Shown here: piece after piece, positions 8,229 through 33,833 of the stretch
How positions within the stretch are numbered: the stretch's first letter is position 1
How the letters are laid out: every line of letters begins with the position of its first letter
From: an uncultured Bacteriovoracaceae bacterium
Lineage (GTDB): Bacteria > Desulfobacterota > Desulfomonilia > UBA1062
Assembly: GCA_964618975.1 (NCBI GenBank)
Contig: CAZUDI010000010.1
Location: 4,378 to 68,377 of the forward strand
Length of the DNA: 64,000 nucleotides
Direction: 5' to 3'
Position numbers and translations under genes: made by a program
The notes under the pieces: model-generated
Database searches by the model: none
What the model was told of the DNA's origin: nothing
The model's input: the letters and a program-made list of their open reading frames with translations, nothing else

Positions 8229-8306
8229 CTCTTAAACATGTATCGACCATATTGCATATCACCTTAAATCCCTGTTGGCAATTCATTGATAGATCAAAGC
8301 ACCTTT

Positions 8307-8391
8307 GATCATGGGTATGAGTCTCTGGCAGCCCCGGCACCCTCCCCTCAAAAAGCCATAAGCAGCGGGGAATGCGGCCCTTAGCAATCGA
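8307..8391 (+). repeat. copy of the dispersed intergenic repeat family (X..Y modules)
   Basis: gatcatgggtatga...agcagcggggaatgcggcccttagcaatcga. Confidence 0.7.
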
Positions 8392-8419
8392 CTGTCCGCT
8401 TGTCGACGAGCGGACAGTC
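8390..8419. terminator. perfect inverted repeat abutting the repeat copy
   Basis: gactgtccgct-tgtcgacg-agcggacagtc. Confidence 0.45.
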
Positions 8420-8482: not shown

Positions 8483-9628
8483 TTATAGAGAATCACCCAG
8501 CAGTTCGAACAGATCAGCAATCTCCTGATCCGTGTGGGTGATCTCGACGGCCATGCCATCATCGTCACTCCTGAGCACCCGCCCCTCGACATTCATGAAC
8601 TGTCCGAAACGATCGCCGAAGAGGTTGGCGTTGACATACAACCCGGCCTCGAGGGGATGTCGCGTCCTGATGAACATCCCGTTCCGGCTGATGTTGGCCA
8701 GACGGGCCATCTCCTCGGAGACGCTCCCTTCGCGGCGATAAACCACCTGCGAATCGGCGTCGACGCGTCTCTCCCTGCGACGATCACTGGCGGCAAGGGC
8801 CTCTTCAGATGGTGCCAGCCCCCGCCCGGCAAGCCTTTCCTGGAGCCATTCGGTCAATCGGGGCGAGAGGCGGGAGAGGTAATAAATCGCCCGCCAGTTG
8901 TTCGTCAGGATGAGAAAGCGTCCTGTGAGCATACCACGCAGCAAGGCATCTGCCGCCTCATCGGGCGCAAGGGGTTTCATCCGCCGGGAGAGGGACCGCA
9001 ATCCCGGCCGCGGTGCAAGCTCGAGTTTTTCATGCAGAGGGGTCTTCGTGTTGTGAGGGCAGAATACCGACACCGAGATCCGGTGCGGTTTCATCTCCTG
9101 GCGCAGGGCCTGACTGAAACCGATAACGGCGGCCTTCGAGGCCCCGTAGGCGGCCAGGCTCCTGCCATTCATGATACCGGCACTGGCAGCCACGTTGACC
9201 ACATATCCACCATGTTCCTTCATCAGGGGAAGACAGGCCCGGCACATGTTCACTGTGCCGAAACAATTCACCCGCATCTGCCGCTCCATAATTTCCAGCG
9301 GCATGCCCTCGAAATAGGCCGCCCGGGCGATGCCGGCGCAGTTAAGGAGTATATCTACCGTCCTATTTTCCGTATGATAAACCTGAACCCACCGTGCCAC
9401 CTGTTCGTAATCCCCTACGTCAACGCTTGCCCACTGTATCTGCTGGGAGGGAAATCTTGTCCGGGACCTCACCTCCGCAGCCGCATCCCCCAAGGCATCC
9501 TCCCTTCTGGCCAGCAGGTACACATGCGCCCCCCCAGCGGCCAGCAGCCCGGCCGCCGCCTTGCCGATCCCGCTCGATCCCCCGGTGATAACGGCGTTCC
9601 TACCGCTGAATCTCTCGTAACCCTTCAT
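8483..9628 (-). CDS. SDR-family oxidoreductase fused to a C-terminal PilZ (c-di-GMP-binding) domain
   Basis: N-terminal TGGSSGIGKA Rossmann motif and a YxxxK-type SDR core. The C-terminus carries RRRERR (RxxxR) and NISRNGM (D/NxSxxG) PilZ signatures 22 residues apart. Confidence 0.85.
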   Translation of the reverse strand: MKGYERFSGRNAVITGGSSGIGKAAAGLLAAGGAHVYLLARREDALGDAAAEVRSRTRFPSQQIQWASVDVGDYEQVARWVQVYHTENRTVDILLNCAGIARAAYFEGMPLEIMERQMRVNCFGTVNMCRACLPLMKEHGGYVVNVAASAGIMNGRSLAAYGASKAAVIGFSQALRQEMKPHRISVSVFCPHNTKTPLHEKLELAPRPGLRSLSRRMKPLAPDEAADALLRGMLTGRFLILTNNWRAIYYLSRLSPRLTEWLQERLAGRGLAPSEEALAASDRRRERRVDADSQVVYRREGSVSEEMARLANISRNGMFIRTRHPLEAGLYVNANLFGDRFGQFMNVEGRVLRSDDDGMAVEITHTDQEIADLFELLGDSL

Positions 9629-9863
9629 AACGCCCCCCGTCTTTCGTCGCTTTGCCGGAACCCGTGTCTGACGAATAATTCAGAAGCACGAAGAGGAACA
9701 CGGAGTGGGCAAGACCGGGCTGCACACTCCGCACTATGTGAAATAATATGGGTAAGGTAACCTTCAGACCTGGAAAGTCAATATTGATGATTCGCGCGTG
9801 TAAGCGGCGCAGGTATTACCTCAATCGGTCGGATGATCGTCTGTCTTAACGTGATGCGGCGTA

Positions 9864-9905
9864 CCCTTCCCGGTGAATGCACTAAACATGCATTCACCGG
9901 GAAGG
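9864..9905. terminator. 18-bp perfect-stem hairpin, likely terminator of the DRTGG/nfn transcription unit
   Basis: cccttcccggtgaatgca-ctaaaca-tgcattcaccgggaaggg. Confidence 0.55.
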
Positions 9906-9942
9906 GGAAGACATCATAGTGTGCGTCCTTACAAGGTCTGCC

Positions 9943-10311
9943 TCATTCGCATTCATCCCCCACCTTGACGACAGAGCCCTGCATGCCGGCCTCGTACAGC
10001 CTGCCGCAAGCCTCGAACATGATGAAACGTGTGGCAAGCAGCGGGATCTGCTTCGTCTGCGCCAACTCGACAGCCTCGACCTGCGGACGTTTGCCGCGCA
10101 CGAAGATGATGGCACTCAGGTCCATGGTATCGGCGGTACGTACCACCAGGGGATTGGTCAAACCCGTGAGAAGCACCGAGCGTTCCTTGGAAAAAGAGAG
10201 CACGTCGCTCATCAGATCGGCGCCGAAGGCAATGCTCACATCCATTCCGAGCATCTCTTTGCCGACGATGACGTCCGCATCAAGGATCGCTCTGATCTCC
10301 TCAAGGGTCAT
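9943..10311 (-). CDS. DRTGG domain-containing protein
   Basis: 122 aa matching the DRTGG domain (SDVLSF....VLLTGLTNPLVVRTAD). Immediately downstream of nfnB. Confidence 0.75.
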   Translation of the reverse strand: MTLEEIRAILDADVIVGKEMLGMDVSIAFGADLMSDVLSFSKERSVLLTGLTNPLVVRTADTMDLSAIIFVRGKRPQVEAVELAQTKQIPLLATRFIMFEACGRLYEAGMQGSVVKVGDECE

Positions 10312-10324
10312 ATCCTTACTTCCC

Positions 10325-11731
10325 TTACTTCTTCGACATCACGTATTCGTGCATGGCCCGGGCGGCATTGCGGCCGGCCCCCATGGCCAGGATCACGGTG
10401 GCGGCGCCGGTAACGATGTCGCCGCCGGCATAAACACCCTCCCGGGAGGTCTCGCCGGTCTCTTCGTTGGCCACGATGTTGTTCCATCTGTTCACGTCGA
10501 GTCCCGGGGTGGTGCTCTGCACCAGCGGGTTGGCGCCGGAACCGATGGCCACCACGACCGTGTCTACATCCCAGAAAAATTCACTGCCCTCAATAGGCAC
10601 CGGCCTGCGCCGACCGGAATCGTCGGGCTCGCCGAGTTCCATACGCAGACATTCCATGGAGGTGACCCAGCCCTTGTCGTCGCCAATGTACCGGATGGGG
10701 GTGGTGAGCAGGTTCAGTTGCACGCCCTCTTCCTCGGCATGATGGACCTCTTCGATACGGGCGGGCATCTCATCACGTGAACGGCGGTAAACCAGGTAGA
10801 CGTTGTCGGCCCCGAGCCTCAGGGCGGTGCGCGCCGCGTCCATGGCCACATTGCCGCCGCCGATGACCGCCACGTTCTTGCCCTTGACTATGGGGGTGTC
10901 GTACTCTGGGAAACGGTAGGCCTTCATGAGATTGGAGCGGGTAAGATACTCATTGGCCGAGTAGACACCGTTGAGGTTCTCGCCCGGGATCTTCATGAAA
11001 CTCGGCGCACCGGCGCCTGTGCCCAGAAAGATGGCGTCGAATCCTTCGGCAAAGAGTTCGTCCACGGTGGCCACCTTGCCGATTACGTGCGAGGTCTCCA
11101 CCTTGACCCCCATGCCCTTGAGGAAGTCCACCTCGGCCTGTACGATGGCCTTGGGGAGCCGGAACTCGGGGATCCCGTACACGAGCACCCCGCCCGCCTT
11201 GTGCAGGGCCTCGAAGATGGTGACCTCATGTCCGAGCTTGATCAGATCGCCGGCCACGGTGAGCCCGGCGGGTCCGGATCCGACAATGGCGATGCGCTTG
11301 CCCGTAGGGGGGGCGATCGCGGGGATTTCCACCGCGCCCTGGGCGCGCTCGTAATCCGCCACGAAACGCTCGAGCCGTCCGATGGCCACGGGCTCGCCCT
11401 TCTTGCCGCGCACACAGAACTGTTCGCACTGGCTCTCCTGCGGGCACACCCGGCCGCAGACGGCCGGCAGGACGTTCGTTTCCTTGATCTTCTTGGCCGC
11501 CCCGATAAAATCACCCTCGGCTACCTTGGCAATGAAGGCGGGGATATCGATCTCCACCGGACACCCTTCCACACAGGGCTTGTTCTTGCACTGGATGCAC
11601 CTCAGGGCCTCTTCCTTGGCCATCTCCACCGTATATCCCAAAGGCACCTCGTCAAAATTCTTGGACCTGACCTTCGGTTCCTGTTCCGGCATGGGGTGAC
11701 GAAGGATCTTCATCCTTTCCTTCATATCCAT
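10325..11731 (-). CDS. nfnB: NADH-dependent reduced ferredoxin:NADP oxidoreductase large subunit (NfnB/GltD/SudA-like)
   Basis: Two 4Fe-4S Cys clusters (CKNKPCVEGCPV... CGRVCPQESQCEQFC) followed by FAD/NADPH GxGxxG motifs (IAIVGSGPAG, VAVIGGGNVAMD). 468 aa. Confidence 0.85.
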   Translation of the reverse strand: MDMKERMKILRHPMPEQEPKVRSKNFDEVPLGYTVEMAKEEALRCIQCKNKPCVEGCPVEIDIPAFIAKVAEGDFIGAAKKIKETNVLPAVCGRVCPQESQCEQFCVRGKKGEPVAIGRLERFVADYERAQGAVEIPAIAPPTGKRIAIVGSGPAGLTVAGDLIKLGHEVTIFEALHKAGGVLVYGIPEFRLPKAIVQAEVDFLKGMGVKVETSHVIGKVATVDELFAEGFDAIFLGTGAGAPSFMKIPGENLNGVYSANEYLTRSNLMKAYRFPEYDTPIVKGKNVAVIGGGNVAMDAARTALRLGADNVYLVYRRSRDEMPARIEEVHHAEEEGVQLNLLTTPIRYIGDDKGWVTSMECLRMELGEPDDSGRRRPVPIEGSEFFWDVDTVVVAIGSGANPLVQSTTPGLDVNRWNNIVANEETGETSREGVYAGGDIVTGAATVILAMGAGRNAARAMHEYVMSKK

Positions 11732-11732
11732 A

Positions 11733-12584
11733 TCAGTTCCCCCCCTTCTGTGCTGCGCAGGTGCAGTAATGATCCATACAGATCTTTTCCTCGCCCAGGT
11801 AGATGCACTGTCTGTTCACCAGTTCCTGGAAGTCCACCTCATGTCCGTCGAACTCGGGCCCGTCGACACATACGAACTTGGTCTTGCCGCCGACCGTCAC
11901 GCGGCAGGCCCCGCACATACCGGTCGCATCCACCATGATGGCGTTGAGCGAGACCAGGGTATGCACATCGTACTTCTTGGTTACCGAGCAGACCGCACGC
12001 ATCATCGGTACCGGACCAATGGCCACGACCAGGTCGATCTTGGTGCCCTTCTTGAGGTAGAGTTCCTCAAGGGCCTGGGACACGAACCCGTGAAACCCGT
12101 ATGAACCGTCGTCGGTGGTCACGACGATCTCGTCGCTGACGGCCTTCATCTCCTCCTCAAGAATGAGCAGACCCTTGTCCCGTGAACCGATGATCGAGAT
12201 CACATGGTTGCCGGCCTGTTTCATGCCCTGTGTGATGGGGTAGACCGGTGCCACGCCCACGCCTCCGCCGATGCACACCACGGTCCCGATCTTCTCGATA
12301 TGGGTGGGCGTGCCCAGGGGTCCAACCAGATCCAGGACCTCATCACCCACCTCGAGCCGGGAGAGGTGCTTGGTGGACTTTCCGACCGTCTGGAAGATCA
12401 GGGTCAGGGTTCCCTTCTTAGCATCCGCATCCGCTATCGTAAGGGGCACACGCTCTCCCTCTTCATGGATTCTCAGAACAATGAACTGCCCCGGTTTACG
12501 TTTGGCCGCGATCCTCGGGGCATCAAAGACCATCTTAAAAAGATTATCTGCCAGTTTTTCCTTTTCCAATACCTTCGCTGCCAT
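11733..12584 (-). CDS. nfnA: ferredoxin-NADP reductase-like small subunit (NfnA/SudB, PyrK-like)
   Basis: FNR-like FAD/NAD domains plus a C-terminal 2Fe-2S Cys cluster (CGACRV...C..C). Sits directly upstream of nfnB. Confidence 0.85.
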   Translation of the reverse strand: MAAKVLEKEKLADNLFKMVFDAPRIAAKRKPGQFIVLRIHEEGERVPLTIADADAKKGTLTLIFQTVGKSTKHLSRLEVGDEVLDLVGPLGTPTHIEKIGTVVCIGGGVGVAPVYPITQGMKQAGNHVISIIGSRDKGLLILEEEMKAVSDEIVVTTDDGSYGFHGFVSQALEELYLKKGTKIDLVVAIGPVPMMRAVCSVTKKYDVHTLVSLNAIMVDATGMCGACRVTVGGKTKFVCVDGPEFDGHEVDFQELVNRQCIYLGEEKICMDHYCTCAAQKGGN

Positions 12585-12602
12585 AAAGCCCTCCCTCTTT
12601 CC

Positions 12603-13190
12603 CTATCGTTTTTCCAAAGCTGCAAACAGACCGGTGAGAAGCCCCAGCGTCAGGAATGCACCGGGGGGCAGAATCATGACCAGTACCGGCTGAAAGGAGC
12701 TCCCGAAGATAGCCATATCGAAGATGGTACCGTTGCCGAACAGCTCGCGTATACTGCCCAGGATAACCAGGGCCAGGGTGAAACCCATGCCCATGCCGAT
12801 CCCGTCCGCAATCGAGGGCAGCAGGGAATTTTTCGAGGCAAAGGCCTCGGCCCGCCCCAGGATGATGCAATTCACCACGATAAGGGGGATGAACAGCCCC
12901 AGAGAGTGGTGCAGGCTTCGGAAATAGCCGCTCATCACCAGATCCACCACCGTCACGAAGGACGCGATGATCACGATGAAGACCGGAATACGCACCTTAT
13001 CCGGTACGAGGGGCCGTACGAGAGAGACCACCCCGTTAGAACATACCAGCACGAAGGTAGCCGCCAGTCCCATGCCCACTCCGTTGATCGCATTCGTGGT
13101 GACAGCGAGCACCGGACACATGCCGAGCACCAGCACAAACACCGGGTTTTCTTTCCATATTCCCTTGGTGAGTTCCTTACTGAACGACAT
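12603..13190 (-). CDS. rnfE: Rnf electron transport complex subunit E
   Basis: Start placed at the ATG preceded by GGAGG (MSFSKELTKGIWKENP...). RnfE/RnfA-family polytopic protein. Confidence 0.9.
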   Translation of the reverse strand: MSFSKELTKGIWKENPVFVLVLGMCPVLAVTTNAINGVGMGLAATFVLVCSNGVVSLVRPLVPDKVRIPVFIVIIASFVTVVDLVMSGYFRSLHHSLGLFIPLIVVNCIILGRAEAFASKNSLLPSIADGIGMGMGFTLALVILGSIRELFGNGTIFDMAIFGSSFQPVLVMILPPGAFLTLGLLTGLFAALEKR

Positions 13191-13752
13191 GTGCGCCTCC
13201 GAGAATCTGTGCCTTGGTCTCGGCATACCGATCAAGACCCTCTTTGACCGCCGCGGTTACCGCCCGCGGAGAGATGGTCGCGCCGGAGATCTGCTCGAAA
13301 TCGCCGCCATCCTTTTTCACGGCCCAGTTGACGTTGTCCAGGGTCTTGCCCTTGTACTGACCCTTGAACCTGTCTTCGGCGATCTTTGATCCCAGCCCCG
13401 GGGTCTCCTTCTGTTCCAGAATGCCGATCCCGATAATATTTCCTTCGGGCTGTACCCCTACCAGAACCCTGATCAATCCGCTGTAGCCCTTCTCCGTGGA
13501 GGTTTCGAAGGCCACCCCGTTGATGTCCGCTCCTGATCGGGAAAGATAGTATACCCTGTCCCCGACGGTAACCGTATCATTGTCGGGCTCGTTGTCATGC
13601 TCAGGCAACACCAGGTTCAGGGCCCGGAGTTTTTCCAGTTTGTCCTGATAGGCCCGCGCTCCGCGGGTGGCATCGTTCACGAATGACAGGCAAAGGCCGG
13701 ATATCATGCATACCACCGTCAAAACCGTTATGAGTTTCACCACTTCCTTCAT
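13177..13752 (-). CDS. rnfG: Rnf complex subunit G (FMN-binding)
   Basis: N-terminal transmembrane segment and an FMN-binding domain with the conserved SGATISPRAV motif. Confidence 0.9.
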   Translation of the reverse strand: MKEVVKLITVLTVVCMISGLCLSFVNDATRGARAYQDKLEKLRALNLVLPEHDNEPDNDTVTVGDRVYYLSRSGADINGVAFETSTEKGYSGLIRVLVGVQPEGNIIGIGILEQKETPGLGSKIAEDRFKGQYKGKTLDNVNWAVKKDGGDFEQISGATISPRAVTAAVKEGLDRYAETKAQILGGAHVVQ

Positions 13753-13755
13753 CGC

Positions 13756-14733
13756 TTACGCTCCAAACTTCCCTGGCCTGGTCGCCTTGTTGATCAGCGG
13801 CACAAAGGCGTTCATGATGAGGATGGCGAAGGAAACCCCTTCGGGGTAGCCTCCCCAAAGCCTGATGACCACGGTAATCAGGCCGCAGCCGACGGCAAAG
13901 ATGATCTTGCCGGAATTCGTGATCGGCGAGGTGACCATGTCCGTAGCCATGAAAAACGCGCCGATCATCAGTCCGCCGGAGATCATGTGAAAGGCCGGAT
14001 TTGCATAGAGAGTGGGGTCGATGAGCCAGAAGATGCCCGTAAAAAGCGCCACACTGCCGATGAAGCACACCGGGATATGCCAGGTTATGATGCGCCGCGC
14101 AATCAGGTAGATGCCGCCTATGATGAGTGCCAGGGCCGATATCTCACCCAGGGAACCCCCCACGTTCCCCAGGAAGGGATCCATGAGGCTGATCCCGGGG
14201 GCGGACTCAAGGCTTCCGTGCTCGAAAACGGCGTTCTTGAGCGCCCCCAGTGGGGTGGCGCTGCTCACCGCGTCGGTGCCCTGCTGGAAGAAGAAGGCCC
14301 GCGGGGCTGCCCAGGTGGTCATCTGCACCGGGAAGGAGATCAGCAGGAAGACCCGCGCCACCAGCGCCGGATTGAAGGGATTGTTGCCGAGTCCGCCATA
14401 GACGTGTTTGCCGAGACCCATGGCGATCACCGACCCGAGCACCACCAGCCACCATGGCGCCCCCGACGGCAGGTTCATCGCCAGCAGCAGACCGGTCAGA
14501 GCCGCGGAACCATCCGAGATGGTGATCGTCTTGCCGATGAGCTTCTGAATCAGGGCCTCTGAGGCTACACAGGTGACCACACAGAGGACGATGACCATCA
14601 GGGCCGGCAGGCCGAAAAAGTACAGGCCCACCAAGGCGCCGGGGATCAAGGCGTAGATCACTTGGCGCATGATCCACGGTATATCCTCAGGGGAATGTAC
14701 ATGTGGCGAACTGGAAATGTATAACTCTTTCAT
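13756..14733 (-). CDS. rnfD: Rnf complex subunit D
   Basis: NqrB/RnfD-family membrane protein, 325 aa. Confidence 0.9.
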   Translation of the reverse strand: MKELYISSSPHVHSPEDIPWIMRQVIYALIPGALVGLYFFGLPALMVIVLCVVTCVASEALIQKLIGKTITISDGSAALTGLLLAMNLPSGAPWWLVVLGSVIAMGLGKHVYGGLGNNPFNPALVARVFLLISFPVQMTTWAAPRAFFFQQGTDAVSSATPLGALKNAVFEHGSLESAPGISLMDPFLGNVGGSLGEISALALIIGGIYLIARRIITWHIPVCFIGSVALFTGIFWLIDPTLYANPAFHMISGGLMIGAFFMATDMVTSPITNSGKIIFAVGCGLITVVIRLWGGYPEGVSFAILIMNAFVPLINKATRPGKFGA

Positions 14734-14734
14734 C

Positions 14735-16054
14735 TCATGCCCCTTTTTTCTTGGCCGCCGCGGCCCTCTGCAGCGCCTTCAGATGCTTTACGAAATGGAC
14801 GATCGGACGGTGGGCAGGACAGACGTAGGTGCAACTGCCGCATTCCACACAATCGAGGAGATCGTAGGCCAGGGCATCTTCAAACCGTCCCTTCTCGCCG
14901 CATTTGCTCAGGGTAGAGGGGATCAGGCGCATGGGACAGGCCTCGACACAGCGGCCACAGGCGATGCATGAGGCAAAGTAACTCAGGTCGGTCTCTTCAG
15001 CGGTGAGGACCAGCACCCCCGAGGTCCCCTTCATGACGGGAATGTCCGTAGTGTACTGGGCAATGCCCATCATGGGACCGCCATAGATGATCTTGGCCGC
15101 CTCTTTAAGACCGCCACAAAATTCCAGGATCTCGCTTAGGGGCGTACCCACTCGCACCCGCAGGTTGCGAGGCTCGGCGATCCCCCGCCCGGTCACCGAG
15201 GTGATACGCTCAATCAGGGGCAGGCCTTTAGCGCAGGCGTCCCAGACCGCGGCCACGGTCCCGGTGTTCTGGACCAGGGCCCCCACGTCCATGGGGAGCC
15301 CCCCCGAGGGGACCTCCCTGCCCGTGATGGCGTTGATGAGCTGTTTTTCCGCCCCCTGCGGATATTTCACCTTCAGGGCCTCGACCCTGATCCCGGAGGG
15401 GACCTTCTCCCGCATGACCTTGATCGCTTCGGGCTTGTTGGCCTCGATCCCGATGACGGCGCTTCCAAGGCCCAGAATTCTCATCACCACCTGGATGCCG
15501 GCAATGACACGGTCCGGTTCTTCAAGCATGAGCCTGTAGTCCGCCGCCAGGTAGGGCTCGCACTCGGCCCCGTTGATGATGAAGGTATCGATGGGCTTGT
15601 CCTTGGGGGGAGAGAGCTTCACGTGGGTGGGAAAGGTGGCCCCCCCCATTCCCACCAGCCCTGCGGACTGTATGATCTTCAGGAGTTCCTCGCTGCTGAG
15701 CGCCAGGGGGTCCCGACTCAAGGGCAGGCCGTCCGCCCACTGATCATGACCGTCAGCCTCGAGAACGACGCAGGGGGCGAGCATCCCGGTCACGGGATGG
15801 ACGCAGCGGGCGATCTCCCTGATGGTCCCCGAGGTGGGGGCATGGACCGGGGCCGAAACAAACCCCAGGGGTTCGGACAAGACCTGCCCCTTCTTAACCG
15901 TGTCGCCCTTATGGACCACGGGCTTGGAAGGCGCACCAATGTGCTGTTGCAGGAGTATCCGATATTCCGCAGACAGCGGCATATTGACGAGCTCACACCC
16001 TTTTACGAGGTCCTTGTTTCCGGGTGGATGGACCCCTCCCTTGAATGTCTTCAT
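14735..16054 (-). CDS. rnfC: Rnf complex subunit C
   Basis: NADH-binding region and two 4Fe-4S motifs (CIACGRCVEACP, CVECGSCTYVCP). Confidence 0.9.
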   Translation of the reverse strand: MKTFKGGVHPPGNKDLVKGCELVNMPLSAEYRILLQQHIGAPSKPVVHKGDTVKKGQVLSEPLGFVSAPVHAPTSGTIREIARCVHPVTGMLAPCVVLEADGHDQWADGLPLSRDPLALSSEELLKIIQSAGLVGMGGATFPTHVKLSPPKDKPIDTFIINGAECEPYLAADYRLMLEEPDRVIAGIQVVMRILGLGSAVIGIEANKPEAIKVMREKVPSGIRVEALKVKYPQGAEKQLINAITGREVPSGGLPMDVGALVQNTGTVAAVWDACAKGLPLIERITSVTGRGIAEPRNLRVRVGTPLSEILEFCGGLKEAAKIIYGGPMMGIAQYTTDIPVMKGTSGVLVLTAEETDLSYFASCIACGRCVEACPMRLIPSTLSKCGEKGRFEDALAYDLLDCVECGSCTYVCPAHRPIVHFVKHLKALQRAAAAKKKGA

Positions 16055-17022
16055 GTATCAAGCCTCTCTATGGCGTCAGATGGGCACTTCGCCATGCAGA
16101 TCCCACAGCCGATGCACCGGCCGGTATCTACAGTGTAGGCCGCCTTGGGTCTTCCGGAGATGGCGTCCACAGGGCATACCTGCGCACAGATGCTGCATCC
16201 CTTGCATTTCTCTTCAATCACCCGCACCCTTGCTGGCGACACCGTGAGCTTGATCACACCCGTAGGACAGACACCGATACACAGTCCGCATCTGCGGCAC
16301 CGTTCCTGATCGATGAAGGCCGCGGCCGTCTTCGAGACCGTGATGGCATCATAGGGGCAAATCTGCTCGCAGAAACCGCATTTGATGCATCCCACCGCAC
16401 ACAAGGTCTTCATCTCCTTGGCGGGATCCTGGGAAATACACGCGACACACGCCACCGACCCGGCCGGAACGAGTTGGATGATGTGTCGCGGACAGGCATC
16501 AAGGCACTTGCCGCAGCCCACACAGACCTCTTTGTCCACATGCGGCAGGCCGTCCTCGCCCATGTGGATGGCCGCAAACGGGCAGGCCTCCACGCAACTT
16601 CCCAACCCGAGGCAGCCGAAGGCACACGCCTTTGATCCGCCGGCAATGAGCTGGGCCGCCTGGCAGTCCCGGGGGCCAACGTACTGATAGCGGTTTGCGG
16701 CCTGCTCCGGCGTGCCCGTACATCGTACGGCCGCCACCAGTGCCCCGCCCCCCCCGAGCTCCCGCTCGAGTATCTCCGAAAGCACCTTGATGGCCGCCTC
16801 GTTGACCGCCGGACAGGCCATTTCGGTCGCAGGATTGACGGTCAATTCGTGGGCAAAGGCCGCACAACCGGCATATCCGCAGGCTCCGCAGTTTGCCCCG
16901 GGGAGCTGATCGAGAACCGCCTTTTCTCGGGGATCCATCTTTACGGCAAAGGTTACCGCCGAGATCCCCAGGATCAGGGCGGCAATGAAGCCGATTCCAC
17001 CTACCATCACGACAGCTGTCAT
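16051..17022 (-). CDS. rnfB: Rnf complex subunit B (polyferredoxin)
   Basis: N-terminal transmembrane segment plus multiple CxxCxxCxxxCP ferredoxin motifs. ATGA overlap with rnfC. Confidence 0.9.
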   Translation of the reverse strand: MTAVVMVGGIGFIAALILGISAVTFAVKMDPREKAVLDQLPGANCGACGYAGCAAFAHELTVNPATEMACPAVNEAAIKVLSEILERELGGGGALVAAVRCTGTPEQAANRYQYVGPRDCQAAQLIAGGSKACAFGCLGLGSCVEACPFAAIHMGEDGLPHVDKEVCVGCGKCLDACPRHIIQLVPAGSVACVACISQDPAKEMKTLCAVGCIKCGFCEQICPYDAITVSKTAAAFIDQERCRRCGLCIGVCPTGVIKLTVSPARVRVIEEKCKGCSICAQVCPVDAISGRPKAAYTVDTGRCIGCGICMAKCPSDAIERLDT

Positions 17023-17023
17023 C

Positions 17024-17599
17024 TTATTTCACCAGTCCCGAAAATCCCATGAAGGCCAGGGAAAGGATCCCTGCGGTAATGAGAGCGATGGGCGTTCCCT
17101 TAAAGGCCTTGGGTATGTTGTTGTATTCAAACTCCTCACGCATTCCGGCAAACACGACCAGGGCGATCCCGAAGCCCAGCGAGGCCCCGATGGCGAAGAT
17201 ACACGCATCCAGGAGGGAGTACTTGAGCTGAATGTTCAGGATGGCGGCGCCGAGCACCGCACAGTTGGTCGTGATCAGCGGCAGGAAGATGCCCAGGGCC
17301 TGATAGAGCGGAGGGCTAACGCGCTGAATGATCATCTCCACGAGCTGAACCAGCGAGGCAATCACCAGGATGAAGGCGATGGTCTGAAGATACTGCAGAT
17401 CGAATCGGATGAGCAGGTAATAGTTGATCAGCCAGGTGACGAAACACGCCAGCGTCAGCACGAAGATCACGGCCATGCTCATCCCCACGGCGGTATCGAT
17501 CCGTTTGGAAACCCCCATAAACGGACAGATACCGAGGAAGCGCGAGAGCACGAAGTTGTTCACCAATGCAGCGCCAACGATCAGCAAGACATAATACAT
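17024..17599 (-). CDS. rnfA: Rnf complex subunit A
   Basis: RnfA/NqrE-family membrane protein, 191 aa. First gene of the rnfABCDGE operon. Confidence 0.9.
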   Translation of the reverse strand: MYYVLLIVGAALVNNFVLSRFLGICPFMGVSKRIDTAVGMSMAVIFVLTLACFVTWLINYYLLIRFDLQYLQTIAFILVIASLVQLVEMIIQRVSPPLYQALGIFLPLITTNCAVLGAAILNIQLKYSLLDACIFAIGASLGFGIALVVFAGMREEFEYNNIPKAFKGTPIALITAGILSLAFMGFSGLVK

Positions 17600-17632
17600 A
17601 AGTCTCTACCCCCCAGTTTTCAGGCCCTTCTG

Positions 17633-17660
17633 ATTATTCTAAAGATTCCTTTCCTGTCAA
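17633..17660 (-). promoter_or_regulatory. sigma70-like promoter of the rnf operon
   Basis: Minus-strand TTGACA (revcomp of 17655-17660), a 16-nt spacer, then AATAAT (revcomp of 17633-17638). It lies about 35 nt upstream of the rnfA ATG in an AT-rich island. Confidence 0.5.
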
Positions 17661-17679
17661 GATTTCTTTATAATTACTT

Positions 17680-17703
17680 GTTTAAAGATGACAAAATACT
17701 TCC
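17680..17703 (-). promoter_or_regulatory. GTTTAAAG-N8-ATACTTCC motif copy upstream of the rnf promoter
   Basis: gtttaaag-atgacaaa-atacttcc, 19 bp upstream of the -35. Same motif and orientation as 27225, 27293 and 29603. Confidence 0.5.
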
Positions 17704-17900
17704 AGCTAATGAATGGCTATTCAATTCAAGTATCTTCCTGCAGTGTTCCTCCCTCGTGCAACTCATACTTCAGGAAAATGGATCGGGGTTACTTCAGCTG
17801 CGCATGAAGGCATACGCAGGAGGTAGTGTGCCGGGGGGGTGTCCAGACAAAGACACAGGATCACCCCCCGGCCGAGATTCATGCCATCTAGACGGAAACT

Positions 17901-19202
17901 CTACTCATCCTCTCTCGGACCCGTCATGGCCGCATCATCCTGCACCGCACTGATCTGCCGGTAGACACCCCGGGCGAGGATCAGGGCAATGAAGAAGAGC
18001 AGGATCAGTGACACGATGACCACCGTAATGCTGGATTTCTGCCAGCGTGCAACCTTCTGCTGGATTTCCTTTACCTTTTCCTGACTGAGGTTGTGATATC
18101 GGTCGATATCCACCATCATGCCGACCCAACCGAAGCCCTGAGGCTTGCTGAGTCCGGCCCCATAAAAGGCGATCGGGGCATAGGCCGCAAAGATGCGGCT
18201 GTTCCCCAGGGTATAAGTGAAGGATCCGTTTTTGCCTTCCGAGGCCAGGGCATGCATCCGCGGATAATTCTCGTCCAAGAATCCCATCTTGGTGACATTC
18301 ATGGCCCCGTTGCCCGAGGCGAGCAGGGCCTCATAATTGTCCGCGTCCATGTCAGATACGGGCTGCTGATTCTCCCCGAAACCCTTGATCAGATAATCCG
18401 CCGGATGGGACAACACATAACCCTCCCGATCCACCAGGAAGGCATAGTTCTTATCCTCCATCTGCACGGCAGCATATACCTTACCGGCCTCGGTAGGGAT
18501 AATATGATCCGTGAATTCCATAACATGTACGAAATTCAGGGCCAATTCCACCACCCCGGCAAAACCCGTAGAATCAAAAACCGGCGCCGCCATGCGGATA
18601 ATGCCGTCAAAACGCTTGCCGCTATCGAACTCCGCCTTGCTCACATGCCGACCGGTTACGGGTCCCATGAAAAATTCACCGGGCGGCAGGGTCTTGGCCT
18701 GATCGAAATACCCCTCGCCCTGAACACCTTCCACGCCGGCCACATTCCGCAACTCACTAGCCGGCACTGGGCCATCGGCGTTGACCTTGAGGATCTCCAT
18801 ACCCTCCTTGTCGACGAAGGCGATCTCACGATAGATGGGGACGGGAATCTTCACTATACCTACATCGGAGGCCTTCACAACCCCCCTCACGTTGGAATTC
18901 AAGAACGTCGTGTATGACTCTACGTCCCGCGGAAGAATCGAGGCAATCCGGATGTCCTTTTCGCGTTCACTGAAGAACTGGGCGATCGCCTCGGCAATAT
19001 TGGCGGCACGCCCTTCGATGAGCTGCTTCTGACTCTCATCAAGAATACGCAGGTTCGCCTGCGTCGCTTCCTCCCCCACCTTCACCACCCCCTTGCTGAT
19101 CACCACTCCGGTAATAGCCAGGGGCAGCACGATGAGAATGATGAAGCTCAGCGCGATGCCTGCGAAGCTGAAACGGGTCTTTCCTTCCTGGTCCATATCC
19201 AT
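17901..19202 (-). CDS. Cache-like periplasmic sensor domain membrane protein with no output domain
   Basis: Two transmembrane segments (about residues 12-35 and 395-420) bracket a periplasmic domain of roughly 330 aa with a double-Cache-like pattern. The cytoplasmic tail is only about 20 aa. Confidence 0.65.
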   Translation of the reverse strand: MDMDQEGKTRFSFAGIALSFIILIVLPLAITGVVISKGVVKVGEEATQANLRILDESQKQLIEGRAANIAEAIAQFFSEREKDIRIASILPRDVESYTTFLNSNVRGVVKASDVGIVKIPVPIYREIAFVDKEGMEILKVNADGPVPASELRNVAGVEGVQGEGYFDQAKTLPPGEFFMGPVTGRHVSKAEFDSGKRFDGIIRMAAPVFDSTGFAGVVELALNFVHVMEFTDHIIPTEAGKVYAAVQMEDKNYAFLVDREGYVLSHPADYLIKGFGENQQPVSDMDADNYEALLASGNGAMNVTKMGFLDENYPRMHALASEGKNGSFTYTLGNSRIFAAYAPIAFYGAGLSKPQGFGWVGMMVDIDRYHNLSQEKVKEIQQKVARWQKSSITVVIVSLILLFFIALILARGVYRQISAVQDDAAMTGPREDE

Positions 19203-33518: not shown

Positions 33519-33833
33519 ATGCAAGAGAGAAGAACGCAGAAACGGGTTAACATGAACGGACGTCTCAACGTGGACTTTTCCTCCCAGGACAATCCGGATC
33601 TCATCAAACGGGGACTACTGATGAATATCAGTAACGGGGGGATGTATATCCGCACCGTGGCCGCCTTGAAAAAGGGCGCCCTGATCTCCGCCTCTCTGAA
33701 TGCGGATGACCTGGGAAAGGTTATCCCGGTGCAGGGCTGGGTGGTAAGGAGTGTCTCCAACGGGCTGGCCATCGAATTCAGCGATGCGGATCAGCGGGGG
33801 ATTCACGAACTCATGTCACCGGCCTTTCCGTAA
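33519..33833 (+). CDS. stand-alone PilZ domain protein
   Basis: AAGGAGG RBS. RRTQKR (RxxxR) and NISNGGM (D/NxSxxG) signatures. 104 aa. Confidence 0.8.
   Translation: MQERRTQKRVNMNGRLNVDFSSQDNPDLIKRGLLMNISNGGMYIRTVAALKKGALISASLNADDLGKVIPVQGWVVRSVSNGLAIEFSDADQRGIHELMSPAFP

What the first reader, a model, noticed from the sequence alone, without database searches (positions are those of the whole stretch)
8483..9628. Short-chain dehydrogenase/reductase fused to a C-terminal PilZ domain
A single 381-aa polypeptide joins a complete SDR catalytic domain (TGGSSGIGKA ... YxxxK) to a PilZ domain with intact RxxxR (RRRERR) and (D/N)xSxxG (NISRNG) c-di-GMP-contact motifs. PilZ fusions to metabolic oxidoreductases are rare. 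The fusion predicts direct second-messenger control of a redox enzyme.
Basis: partly seen in the sequence, partly recalled or inferred. Interest (0 to 1): 0.6.

Follow-up and report, generated by a model that had tools for sequence, protein, structure and literature searches.

The report
SDR–PilZ fusion lacking catalytic serine
One gene really does join a short-chain dehydrogenase fold to a c-di-GMP-sensing PilZ domain, a very rare strain-specific fusion. The dehydrogenase half has lost its canonical catalytic serine, so it may be a signalling module, not a simply regulated enzyme.

Summary
The 381-aa ORF at 8483-9628 (minus strand) is real and identical in three assemblies. It scores 164 bits on Pfam adh_short and 43.9 bits on PilZ (cut-off 22.5). 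The PilZ half is canonical. RRxxxR (R283-R288) and NxSxxG (N312-G317) lie in register with a solved c-di-GMP complex. Its model has six strands plus a C-terminal helix, and its best PDB matches are all PilZ domains.

The SDR half is not catalytically complete. The tetrad serine (position 148) is Ser in 40 of 40 relatives and Ala here. The cofactor motif, N121, Y161 and K165 are kept.

The fusion is very rare. No other adh_short+PilZ protein appeared in the large protein searches or in 72,556 plasmids. The closest syntenic relatives lack the gene, so the adjacency to flagellar and Nfn genes carries no functional weight.

The nearest PilZ relatives (52% identity) sit on extended SDRs that lack the catalytic Tyr, and on alpha/beta-hydrolases.

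Best reading: a c-di-GMP receptor coupled to an NADP(H)-binding SDR module with weakened or altered catalysis. This is a new variant of a known kind, of moderate interest.

The parts
8483..9628 (-). Whole gene: 381 codons plus stop
   Evidence: ORF list. The identical gene is called in L001-L003.
8825..9613 (-). Classical SDR module, residues 6-268: Rossmann core plus C-terminal helical extension (helices 243-268)
   Evidence: Pfam adh_short at 164 bits. NCBIfam PRK06181 matches residues 6-264 but below its cut-off. The AF2 model has pLDDT above 90 to about residue 270. Best Foldseek PDB matches are HSD17B13, 11beta-HSD1 and LigL.
9563..9586 (-). TGGSSGIG dinucleotide-binding motif (residues 15-22)
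   Evidence: Translation. These columns are invariant or nearly invariant in alignment A1.
9503..9508 (-). R41-R42 after strand beta2. Basic residues here are typical of NADP(H)-preferring classical SDRs (inference from the published SDR coenzyme classification).
   Evidence: R41 is shared by 31 of 40 relatives.
9266..9268 (-). N121, the tetrad Asn (kept)
   Evidence: 36 of 40 relatives have N.
9182..9187 (-). A148-S149. The canonical catalytic Ser position is Ala, and a Ser sits one residue later.
   Evidence: Position 148 is Ser in 40 of 40 relatives and Ala here. Position 149 is M, L, I, A or V in relatives. PDB alignments agree.
9134..9148 (-). Y161-G-A-S-K165, the YxxxK of the tetrad (kept)
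8786..8824 (-). Linker RGLAPSEEALAAS (residues 269-281), where SDR-only relatives end and stand-alone PilZ proteins begin
   Evidence: In alignment A1 the relatives end at about residue 270-280. Stand-alone PilZ proteins start 'MDERRK..'.
8486..8785 (-). Canonical PilZ domain (residues 282-381): six beta-strands plus a C-terminal, unusually acidic, helix
   Evidence: Pfam PilZ at 43.9 bits. Model of the tail with pLDDT 78. The top 42 Foldseek PDB matches are all PilZ-family domains, and the first 38 are canonical PilZ, mostly solved with c-di-GMP.
8765..8782 (-). RRRERR: the RRxxxR c-di-GMP-contact motif (R283, R284, R288) at the domain junction
   Evidence: It aligns in register with RQYPR of PA0012, solved with c-di-GMP.
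8678..8695 (-). NISRNG: the (D/N)xSxxG c-di-GMP-contact motif (N312, S314, G317)
   Evidence: It aligns in register with DLSDTG of PA0012. It lies 23 residues after the RRxxxR motif.
9633..9638 (-). GGGGGG run 4 nt upstream of the ATG, a possible ribosome-binding site. The 314-bp 5' intergenic region suggests the gene has its own promoter (not identified).
   Evidence: Sequence. The sigma-70 consensus scan found nothing above chance.
8390..8419 (-). Hairpin 63 nt after the stop codon, a candidate terminator of the gene (no U-tract)
   Evidence: Inverted repeat with 15-nt arms. Fold -26.5 kcal/mol, z = -2.6.
9864..9906 (-). Perfect 18-bp hairpin just after the upstream DRTGG gene, a candidate terminator that separates the rnf-nfn-DRTGG unit from this gene
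   Evidence: Fold -43.1 kcal/mol, z = -9.9.
8241..8267 (-). Sigma-28-like promoter (TTAAGGTG-N12-GTCGATA) of the downstream orf102-DUF2802-FliK-like-FlhB-C unit. It marks that unit as separate from the SDR-PilZ gene.
   Evidence: It is the only match in the 64-kb window. It is conserved at the same place in L010, L014 and L020.

Best explanation
This is a genuine, lineage-specific, probably monocistronic gene for a soluble two-domain protein.

The N-terminal module is a classical SDR fold. It belongs to the branch that includes 3-ketodihydrosphingosine reductase-like, 11beta-HSD1-like and HSD17B13-like enzymes. It keeps the dinucleotide-binding site (probably NADP(H)) and the Asn, Tyr and Lys of the tetrad. 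It has Ala in place of the invariant catalytic Ser, and its substrate loop is altered.

The C-terminal module is a canonical PilZ c-di-GMP receptor.

Inferred mechanism: c-di-GMP binds between the RRxxxR motif, which lies exactly at the domain junction, and the NxSxxG motif on the beta-barrel. By analogy with two-domain PilZ proteins (VCA0042/PlzD, YcgR) and with BcsA, this clamps the linker and moves the PilZ barrel. The barrel would shift relative to the SDR's C-terminal helical extension, which in structural relatives shapes the substrate pocket and the dimer interface. The state of the SDR module would switch as a result.

Because the catalytic Ser is missing, the switched output is more likely weak or altered chemistry, or NADP(H)/hydrophobic-ligand binding and partner interaction, than a standard ketoreductase reaction.

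Shown here: the gene, both domains, the motifs, the Ser-to-Ala change, the rarity, and the insertion relative to close relatives. Inferred: c-di-GMP binding, cofactor preference, the domain-closure mechanism and the nature of the output.
For: - ORF and domains.
- Identical gene in three assemblies.
- Host-like codon usage in both halves.
- PilZ motifs in register with a c-di-GMP complex.
- PilZ fold.
- Confident SDR fold with a C-terminal helical extension, and nearest structures HSD17B13 and 11beta-HSD1.
- Ser148 to Ala against 40 of 40 relatives, plus G157S, Y158L, P192H, D193N and D195K. 39 of 44 family-conserved columns are kept, so the module is not decayed.
- In a classical SDR the equivalent S163A mutation abolished activity, and non-catalytic SDR subunits exist: PMC13418739.
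- The nearest PilZ relatives are C-terminal add-ons to extended SDRs lacking the catalytic Tyr (P0122 has S...K, P0133 has F...M) and to alpha/beta-hydrolases.
- Hairpins on both sides and a separate sigma-28-like promoter downstream argue for an independent transcription unit.
Against: - No binding or activity data exist.
- Tyr161 and Lys165 are intact and Ser149 is adjacent. Real activity, possibly with an unusual substrate, cannot be excluded.
- The inter-domain geometry was not modelled. The PilZ part of the full-length model has pLDDT below 50.
- Only one population carries the gene, so there is no comparative evidence of selection on the fusion.
- No promoter was identified.
- The PilZ C-terminal helix is acidic, unlike the basic helix described as typical (bioRxiv 10.1101/814665).
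Confidence: 0.5

Rival explanations
1. One reading: a fully competent SDR oxidoreductase whose catalysis is switched on or off allosterically by c-di-GMP binding to the fused PilZ, as in BcsA.
For: The cofactor motif, N121, Y161 and K165 are intact, and 39 of 44 conserved columns are kept. The PilZ is canonical. The alpha/beta-hydrolase-PilZ relative P0177 keeps GxSxG, Asp and His by eye, so this PilZ clade does attach to apparently active enzymes. Ser149 might substitute for Ser148.
Against: Ser148 is invariant in 40 of 40 relatives and is Ala here. The Ser-to-Ala mutation abolishes activity in a tested classical SDR (PMC13418739). Substrate-loop positions 157, 158, 192, 193 and 195 are also changed. 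The sister extended-SDR-PilZ proteins lack the catalytic Tyr.
Confidence: 0.3
2. An evolutionarily young, neutral or decaying fusion with no selected function: an SDR gene that lost its stop codon next to a PilZ gene and is losing catalytic residues.
For: The gene is absent from the closest syntenic relatives. It is seen in a single strain-level population. The catalytic Ser is lost. No close homologue of the whole protein appears among 5.8 billion proteins.
Against: The 381-codon frame is intact and codon usage is host-like. Both PilZ motifs and the cofactor motif are intact. Only 5 of 44 conserved columns are changed. Both halves are only about 40-52% identical to their nearest relatives, so the parts are old, not freshly duplicated. 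Analogous enzyme-PilZ fusions are conserved across organisms (P0122 and P0133 are 45% identical).
Confidence: 0.13
3. A flagellar-motor or motility regulator of the YcgR/MotI type, suggested by the flagellar genes immediately downstream (FliK-like, FlhB C-terminal-like, DUF2802).
For: The gene lies next to orf102, DUF2802, FliK-like and FlhB-C genes. PilZ proteins commonly control motility.
Against: In relatives the DRTGG gene abuts the flagellar unit with no SDR-PilZ gene between them. The flagellar unit has its own conserved sigma-28-like promoter and a hairpin separates the genes. There is no PilZN/YcgR N-terminal domain.
Confidence: 0.05
4. An assembly or sequencing artefact that merges two separate genes.
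For: The data are metagenomic. One database fragment (P0001) is truncated.
Against: The gene is identical in three assemblies from different samples and an independent pipeline. There is no stop codon, and composition is continuous across the junction. P0001 itself spans the junction.
Confidence: 0.02

Closest known systems
BcsA cellulose synthase (GT2 catalytic domain with a C-terminal PilZ)
   Same: An enzyme fold is followed by a canonical C-terminal PilZ carrying RxxxR and DxSxxG. The BcsA PilZ is among the structural matches. It is the textbook case of c-di-GMP acting directly on a fused catalytic domain.
   Different: BcsA is a membrane glycosyltransferase with an intact active site and a gating loop. 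Here the partner is a soluble Rossmann-fold SDR lacking its catalytic Ser, and no gating element has been identified.
Two-domain PilZ receptors YcgR, PlzD (VCA0042) and MotI
   Same: The RRxxxR motif sits in the inter-domain linker, so ligand binding is expected to reorient the two domains. All are structural matches.
   Different: Their N-terminal domain is a PilZ-like (PilZN) barrel that targets the flagellar motor. Here it is an SDR, with no PilZN.
Extended-SDR-PilZ proteins found here (P0122 and P0133 clusters; I found no description of them in the searchable literature)
   Same: They carry the closest PilZ (52% identity), also C-terminal to an NAD(P)-binding SDR-superfamily fold with a degenerate catalytic site. 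One family comes from the same habitat.
   Different: Their N-terminal module is the extended, epimerase/NmrA-like type with the Tyr lost. They have a conserved metallo-beta-lactamase-fold neighbour. They occur in other organisms, with about 50-53% GC against 60.5% in the window.
KDSR/TSC10-like, 11beta-HSD1-like and HSD17B13-like classical SDRs
   Same: The nearest sequence relatives are often labelled 3-dehydrosphinganine reductase by JGI. TSC10 is a PDB sequence hit. HSD17B13 and 11beta-HSD1 are the best structural matches, including the C-terminal helices.
   Different: Identity is at most 45%, and no NCBIfam equivalog passes its cut-off. The catalytic Ser is missing, no sphingolipid genes lie nearby, and a PilZ is added.
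Non-catalytic or moonlighting SDR-fold proteins (NmrA/HSCARG-type atypical SDRs; benzaldehyde synthase beta subunit)
   Same: The dinucleotide-binding fold is retained and the catalytic tetrad is incomplete. Roles include sensor or scaffold (PMC13418739; NmrA/HSCARG from general knowledge).
   Different: Those proteins lack the Tyr or Lys. Here only the Ser is missing, so loss of catalysis is less certain.

Membership tests
PilZ domain (PF07238), canonical c-di-GMP-binding type | Profile match above the curated threshold | tested here: met
   43.9 bits against a gathering score of 22.5, residues 282-369.
PilZ domain (PF07238), canonical c-di-GMP-binding type | RRxxxR motif at the N-terminal edge of the domain | tested here: met
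   R283-R284-x-x-x-R288. It aligns with RQYPR of PA0012, solved with c-di-GMP.
PilZ domain (PF07238), canonical c-di-GMP-binding type | (D/N)xSxxG motif about 20-30 residues later | tested here: met
   N312-I-S314-R-N-G317, 23 residues after R288.
PilZ domain (PF07238), canonical c-di-GMP-binding type | Six-stranded beta-barrel followed by a C-terminal alpha-helix | tested here: met
   The model has six strands plus a helix at tail residues 109-115, pLDDT 78. The top 42 PDB matches are all PilZ-family domains; the first 38 are canonical PilZ. The helix is acidic, not basic (sequence; compare).
PilZ domain (PF07238), canonical c-di-GMP-binding type | Binds c-di-GMP | not testable with these tools
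   Needs DRaCALA, ITC or MST.
Classical SDR (PF00106) | Profile match and Rossmann fold | tested here: met
   164.2 bits. pLDDT above 90. Foldseek E-value about 1e-20 to classical SDRs.
Classical SDR (PF00106) | TGxxxGxG cofactor motif and N-N/C-A-G motif | tested here: met
   T15-G-G-S-S-G-I-G22 and N96-C-A-G99.
Classical SDR (PF00106) | Complete Asn-Ser-Tyr-Lys catalytic tetrad | tested here: not met
   N121, Y161 and K165 are present. Position 148 is Ala, where 40 of 40 relatives and PDB SDRs have Ser.
Classical SDR (PF00106) | NAD(P)(H)-dependent oxidoreductase activity | not testable with these tools
   Needs enzyme assays on wild type and an A148S variant.
3-ketodihydrosphingosine (3-dehydrosphinganine) reductase | Orthology-level similarity to characterised KDSR/TSC10, or a curated equivalog model | tested here: not met
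   The label exists only on relatives at 45% identity or less, as JGI automatic names. TSC10 (8jat) scores 65 bits and is not among the best hits. All NCBIfam hits are below their cut-offs.
3-ketodihydrosphingosine (3-dehydrosphinganine) reductase | Association with serine palmitoyltransferase or ceramide synthesis genes | tested here: inconclusive
   None lie among the immediate neighbours. The rest of the genome is unknown.
YcgR/MotI-type flagellar brake | N-terminal PilZN (YcgR) domain and conserved linkage to motility genes | tested here: not met
   No PilZN hit. The gene is absent from the same flagellar neighbourhood in L010, L012, L014 and L020.
Atypical, non-catalytic SDR (NmrA-like) | Loss of the catalytic Tyr with the NAD(P)-binding site retained | tested here: not met
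   Y161 is retained in the window protein. The feature is met in the sister extended-SDR-PilZ proteins P0122 and P0133.

The most novel reading that the evidence does not exclude
One PilZ clade may have been recruited repeatedly onto the C-terminus of catalytically degenerate SDR-superfamily dinucleotide-binding modules: the classical type here, and the extended NmrA-like type in P0122 and P0133. This would create receptors that integrate the NAD(P)H/NAD(P)+ redox state, or a lipid-like ligand, with c-di-GMP level. The window protein would be an independently formed member of an undescribed class of dual-input signalling adaptors, not a regulated enzyme.
Probability: 0.25. Interest if true: 0.7.

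Novelty: new variant of a known kind. Interest (0 to 1): 0.45.

Why it matters
Well-studied c-di-GMP outputs concern motility, secretion, polysaccharide synthesis and transcription. Direct coupling to redox or cofactor-binding proteins is little explored. The full-text searches I could run turned up no described PilZ fused to an SDR fold. Together with the sister extended-SDR and hydrolase fusions, it offers a compact, soluble and testable system with clear control mutations (A148S and R283A/R288A). It could show how PilZ transmits ligand binding to a fused globular domain. It could also show whether c-di-GMP and NAD(P)H signals are integrated in anaerobes. The finding also carries a caution: a domain-level annotation of 'SDR' hides a missing catalytic residue.

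Tried and rejected
- The word-indexed search with the PilZ tail alone returned nothing. With a PilZ profile it returned only stand-alone PilZ proteins. The architecture survey therefore rests mainly on the exhaustive phmmer run, which sees only PilZ domains close to this one.
- The genome-contig scan found only a remote SDR in a Nonlabens MAG. The organism is not among the GTDB representatives searched and its taxon remains undetermined. Cluster look-ups gave no names.
- Paper searches for the sample and run accessions found nothing.
- Two attempts to build a two-domain alignment for full-length folding failed, because MAFFT placed the stand-alone PilZ rows on the SDR part (A3 and A6). The two halves were therefore modelled separately, and the inter-domain geometry is unknown.
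- The afdb50 fold library was not available.
- Rfam found no family in the window, so no c-di-GMP riboswitch.
- The sigma-70 and terminator consensus scan was at chance level.
- The giant 'hits' P0121, P0124, P0127, P0155 and P0158 are repeat-driven false positives with no PilZ domain.
- Intergenic alignments with relatives were too divergent to define the exact insertion boundaries.
- A motif search for GGDEF and related signatures in the window found nothing informative.
- Functional linkage to the flagellar and Nfn/Rnf neighbours was considered and rejected, because the synteny is not conserved.

Full report
**1. Observation**

The window holds one uninterrupted ORF of 381 codons at 8483..9628 on the minus strand. 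Pfam places adh_short on residues 11-202 (164.2 bits) and PilZ on residues 282-369 (43.9 bits against a gathering score of 22.5). NCBIfam gives only generic SDR models, all below their curated cut-offs. The best is PRK06181, covering residues 6-264.

The same 381-aa product is called on three contigs from two ENA assemblies of different samples and one Logan assembly. The gene has no nucleotide difference in any of them, and the flanks are 99.9-100% identical. GC, GC3 and a codon-adaptation-like index are alike in the two halves and match neighbouring genes. The fusion is therefore not a frameshift or chimera artefact.

**2. The PilZ half is canonical**

- In an alignment with its nearest relatives, the RRxxxR and (D/N)xSxxG columns are conserved.
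- A profile of that alignment matches PA0012, solved with c-di-GMP, with both motifs in register.
- Folded with stand-alone relatives, the tail gives six beta-strands and a C-terminal helix (pLDDT 78).
- Its top 42 Foldseek PDB matches are all PilZ-family domains. The first 38 are canonical PilZ (PA0012, MapZ, Alg44, BcsA, MotI, PlzA, VCA0042, MrkH, YcgR), most of them solved with c-di-GMP.
- One oddity: the C-terminal helix (DQEIADLFELLGDSL) is acidic, whereas this helix is described as typically Arg/Lys-rich (bioRxiv 10.1101/814665).

**3. The SDR half is folded but not catalytically complete**

The full-length model has pLDDT above 90 up to about residue 270, including a C-terminal helical extension (helices 243-268). 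The best structural matches are HSD17B13, 11beta-HSD1 and LigL.

In an alignment with 40 SDR-only relatives, the residue 13 positions before Tyr161 is Ser in 40 of 40 sequences and Ala148 here. This is the tetrad serine. A Ser follows at position 149, where relatives have M, L, I, A or V. PDB alignments agree, and there is no indel between N145 and Y161.

Other conserved active-site-loop positions are also changed: G157S, Y158L, P192H, D193N and D195K. Overall the protein deviates at 5 of 44 family-conserved columns, so it is divergent but not decayed. The cofactor motif, N121, Y161, K165 and the R41-R42 pair are retained. That pair suggests NADP(H) preference, which is an inference from the published SDR coenzyme classification.

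In a classical SDR the equivalent S163A mutation abolished activity. SDRs lacking tetrad residues can serve structural roles (PMC13418739).

**4. Rarity and relatives**

- A full-length search of about 5.8 billion clustered proteins returned 293 hits. Only a fragment of the same protein (P0001) carries PilZ. The rest are SDR-only at 45% identity or less, and many carry the automatic JGI label 3-dehydrosphinganine reductase.
- tblastn against 72,556 plasmids found 3,785 records with SDR matches, none covering 80% or more of the query.
- An exhaustive phmmer of the PilZ tail against 1.84 billion representatives gave 78 hits.
  - Several giant ones are repeat artefacts without PilZ.
  - Most are stand-alone PilZ proteins of about 100 aa.
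  - The closest (P0122, 52% identity in the PilZ; also P0133 and fragments) are extended SDRs (epimerase/3beta-HSD/NmrA-like) with a C-terminal PilZ.
  - Others (P0177, P0188) are alpha/beta-hydrolases with a C-terminal PilZ.
- P0122 and P0133 are 45% identical over their full length and share an upstream metallo-beta-lactamase-fold gene.
- Where solved extended SDRs have YxxxK, P0122 has S...K and P0133 has F...M. That family lacks the catalytic Tyr.
- P0177 appears to keep its GxSxG, Asp and His residues (sequence).
- P0122 comes from the same study as the window, but on contigs of about 50% GC against 60.5% here, so from another organism.

Full-text searches found no description of SDR-PilZ fusions.

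**5. Genomic context**

On the minus strand the gene order is:

1. the rnf operon,
2. an NfnA/B-like pair,
3. a DRTGG gene,
4. the SDR-PilZ gene,
5. orf102,
6. a DUF2802/DUF6115 gene,
7. a FliK-like gene,
8. an FlhB C-terminal-like gene,
9. a DUF3332 gene.

The four closest syntenic loci from metagenomes are L020, L010, L012 and L014, with NfnB 81-90% identical. In all four the DRTGG gene is followed directly by orf102 and the flagellar genes. The gap is 178-440 bp, against 1,715 bp here. No SDR or PilZ match occurs in any of the 80 loci.

The gene is therefore a lineage-specific insertion, and its neighbours give no functional evidence. A perfect 18-bp hairpin follows the DRTGG gene (z = -9.9). 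A 15-nt-arm hairpin follows the SDR-PilZ stop codon. A sigma-28-like promoter, unique in the window, is conserved upstream of orf102 in the relatives. Together these suggest a monocistronic gene. Its own promoter was not identified.

**6. Mechanism**

Shown: a canonical PilZ sits immediately after the C-terminal helices of an SDR fold, with the RRxxxR motif in the junction.

Inferred: as in two-domain PilZ receptors and BcsA, c-di-GMP binding would clamp the linker onto the barrel and reposition it against helices 243-268. In 11beta-HSD1-type SDRs these helices line the substrate pocket and the dimer interface. The state of the SDR module would change as a result.

Ala148 and the pattern in the sister fusions make me judge altered or weak catalysis, or cofactor/ligand sensing, somewhat more likely than a standard regulated ketoreductase (about 0.5 against 0.3). 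A neutral young fusion (about 0.13), a flagellar brake (about 0.05) and an artefact (about 0.02) are less likely.

**7. Comparison and verdict**

The protein meets every sequence and fold criterion for a canonical PilZ. It meets the fold and cofactor criteria for a classical SDR, but fails the complete-tetrad criterion. It cannot be filed as a KDSR, a YcgR-type brake or an NmrA-type atypical SDR.

It works most like the enzyme-PilZ fusions exemplified by BcsA. Its nearest kin are the undescribed extended-SDR-PilZ proteins. It is a new variant of a known kind, seen in only one uncultured population of undetermined taxon. Interest is moderate (0.45).

The most novel reading not excluded is a class of PilZ-coupled, non-catalytic dinucleotide-binding modules that integrate redox state with c-di-GMP (probability about 0.25).

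Noticed in passing
window 33519-33833 (+): A stand-alone 104-aa PilZ of the same clade as the fused one, about 33-34% identical to it and identical to database protein P0159. It keeps RRxxxR and NISNGG. It lies between a transketolase-like ORF and an FtsY-like ORF.
   Followed up: partly
window 8241-8267 (-); L010 11919-11945, L014 12186-12212, L020 11939-11965: A sigma-28 (FliA)-like promoter, TTAAGnTG-N12-GTCGATA, is conserved upstream of the orf102-DUF2802-FliK-like-FlhB-C cluster. It is the only match in the 64-kb window and none occurred in shuffles.
   Followed up: partly
L005, L006 (1680-2963), L007 (6406-7716), L008: An undescribed family of extended-SDR (epimerase/NmrA-like) + C-terminal PilZ proteins. 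They lack the catalytic Tyr (P0122 has S...K, P0133 has F...M). A metallo-beta-lactamase-fold gene is conserved upstream.
   Followed up: partly
L009 3377-4639 (P0177); also P0188, P0144, P0179, P0170: Alpha/beta-hydrolase + C-terminal PilZ fusions from the same PilZ clade. The catalytic GxSxG, Asp and His appear intact. The gene sits next to an Oxidored_FMN/Pyr_redox_2 gene (old-yellow-enzyme-type FMN oxidoreductase domain) and a polyketide-cyclase-like gene.
   Followed up: no
window 9864-9906: A perfect 18-bp stem with a 7-nt loop immediately after the DRTGG gene (-43 kcal/mol, z = -9.9). It has no U-tract. It is probably the terminator of the rnf-nfn-DRTGG unit, and it is absent from the relatives' intergenic regions.
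   Followed up: partly
window 8233-8248 and 9883-9898: An imperfect 16-nt direct repeat (13 of 16 matches; TAAACATGTATCGACC and TAAACATGCATTCACC) flanks the roughly 1.65-kb inserted segment. It could be a remnant of the insertion event or chance.
   Followed up: no
window 9943-19202 (-): A conserved block of the rnf operon, an NfnA/B-like pair (283 and 468 aa) and a small DRTGG-domain gene. The NfnA/B-DRTGG part is syntenic in relatives with 81-90% identical NfnB. The role of the DRTGG protein at the end of this redox operon is unclear.
   Followed up: no
L001 3577-4894 versus window 14735-16054: The RnfC-like gene is called as 295 aa in assembly L001 but as 439 aa in L002 and in the window. 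The L001-window alignment has one gap, so this is probably an indel or frameshift in one assembly.
   Followed up: no
one search hits P0121, P0123, P0124, P0127, P0136: Giant proteins of 1,300-7,000 aa scored well against the PilZ tail through many short repeated stretches. Those scanned (P0121, P0124, P0127) carry chitin-binding peritrophin repeats and no PilZ, so they are repeat-driven false positives.
   Followed up: yes
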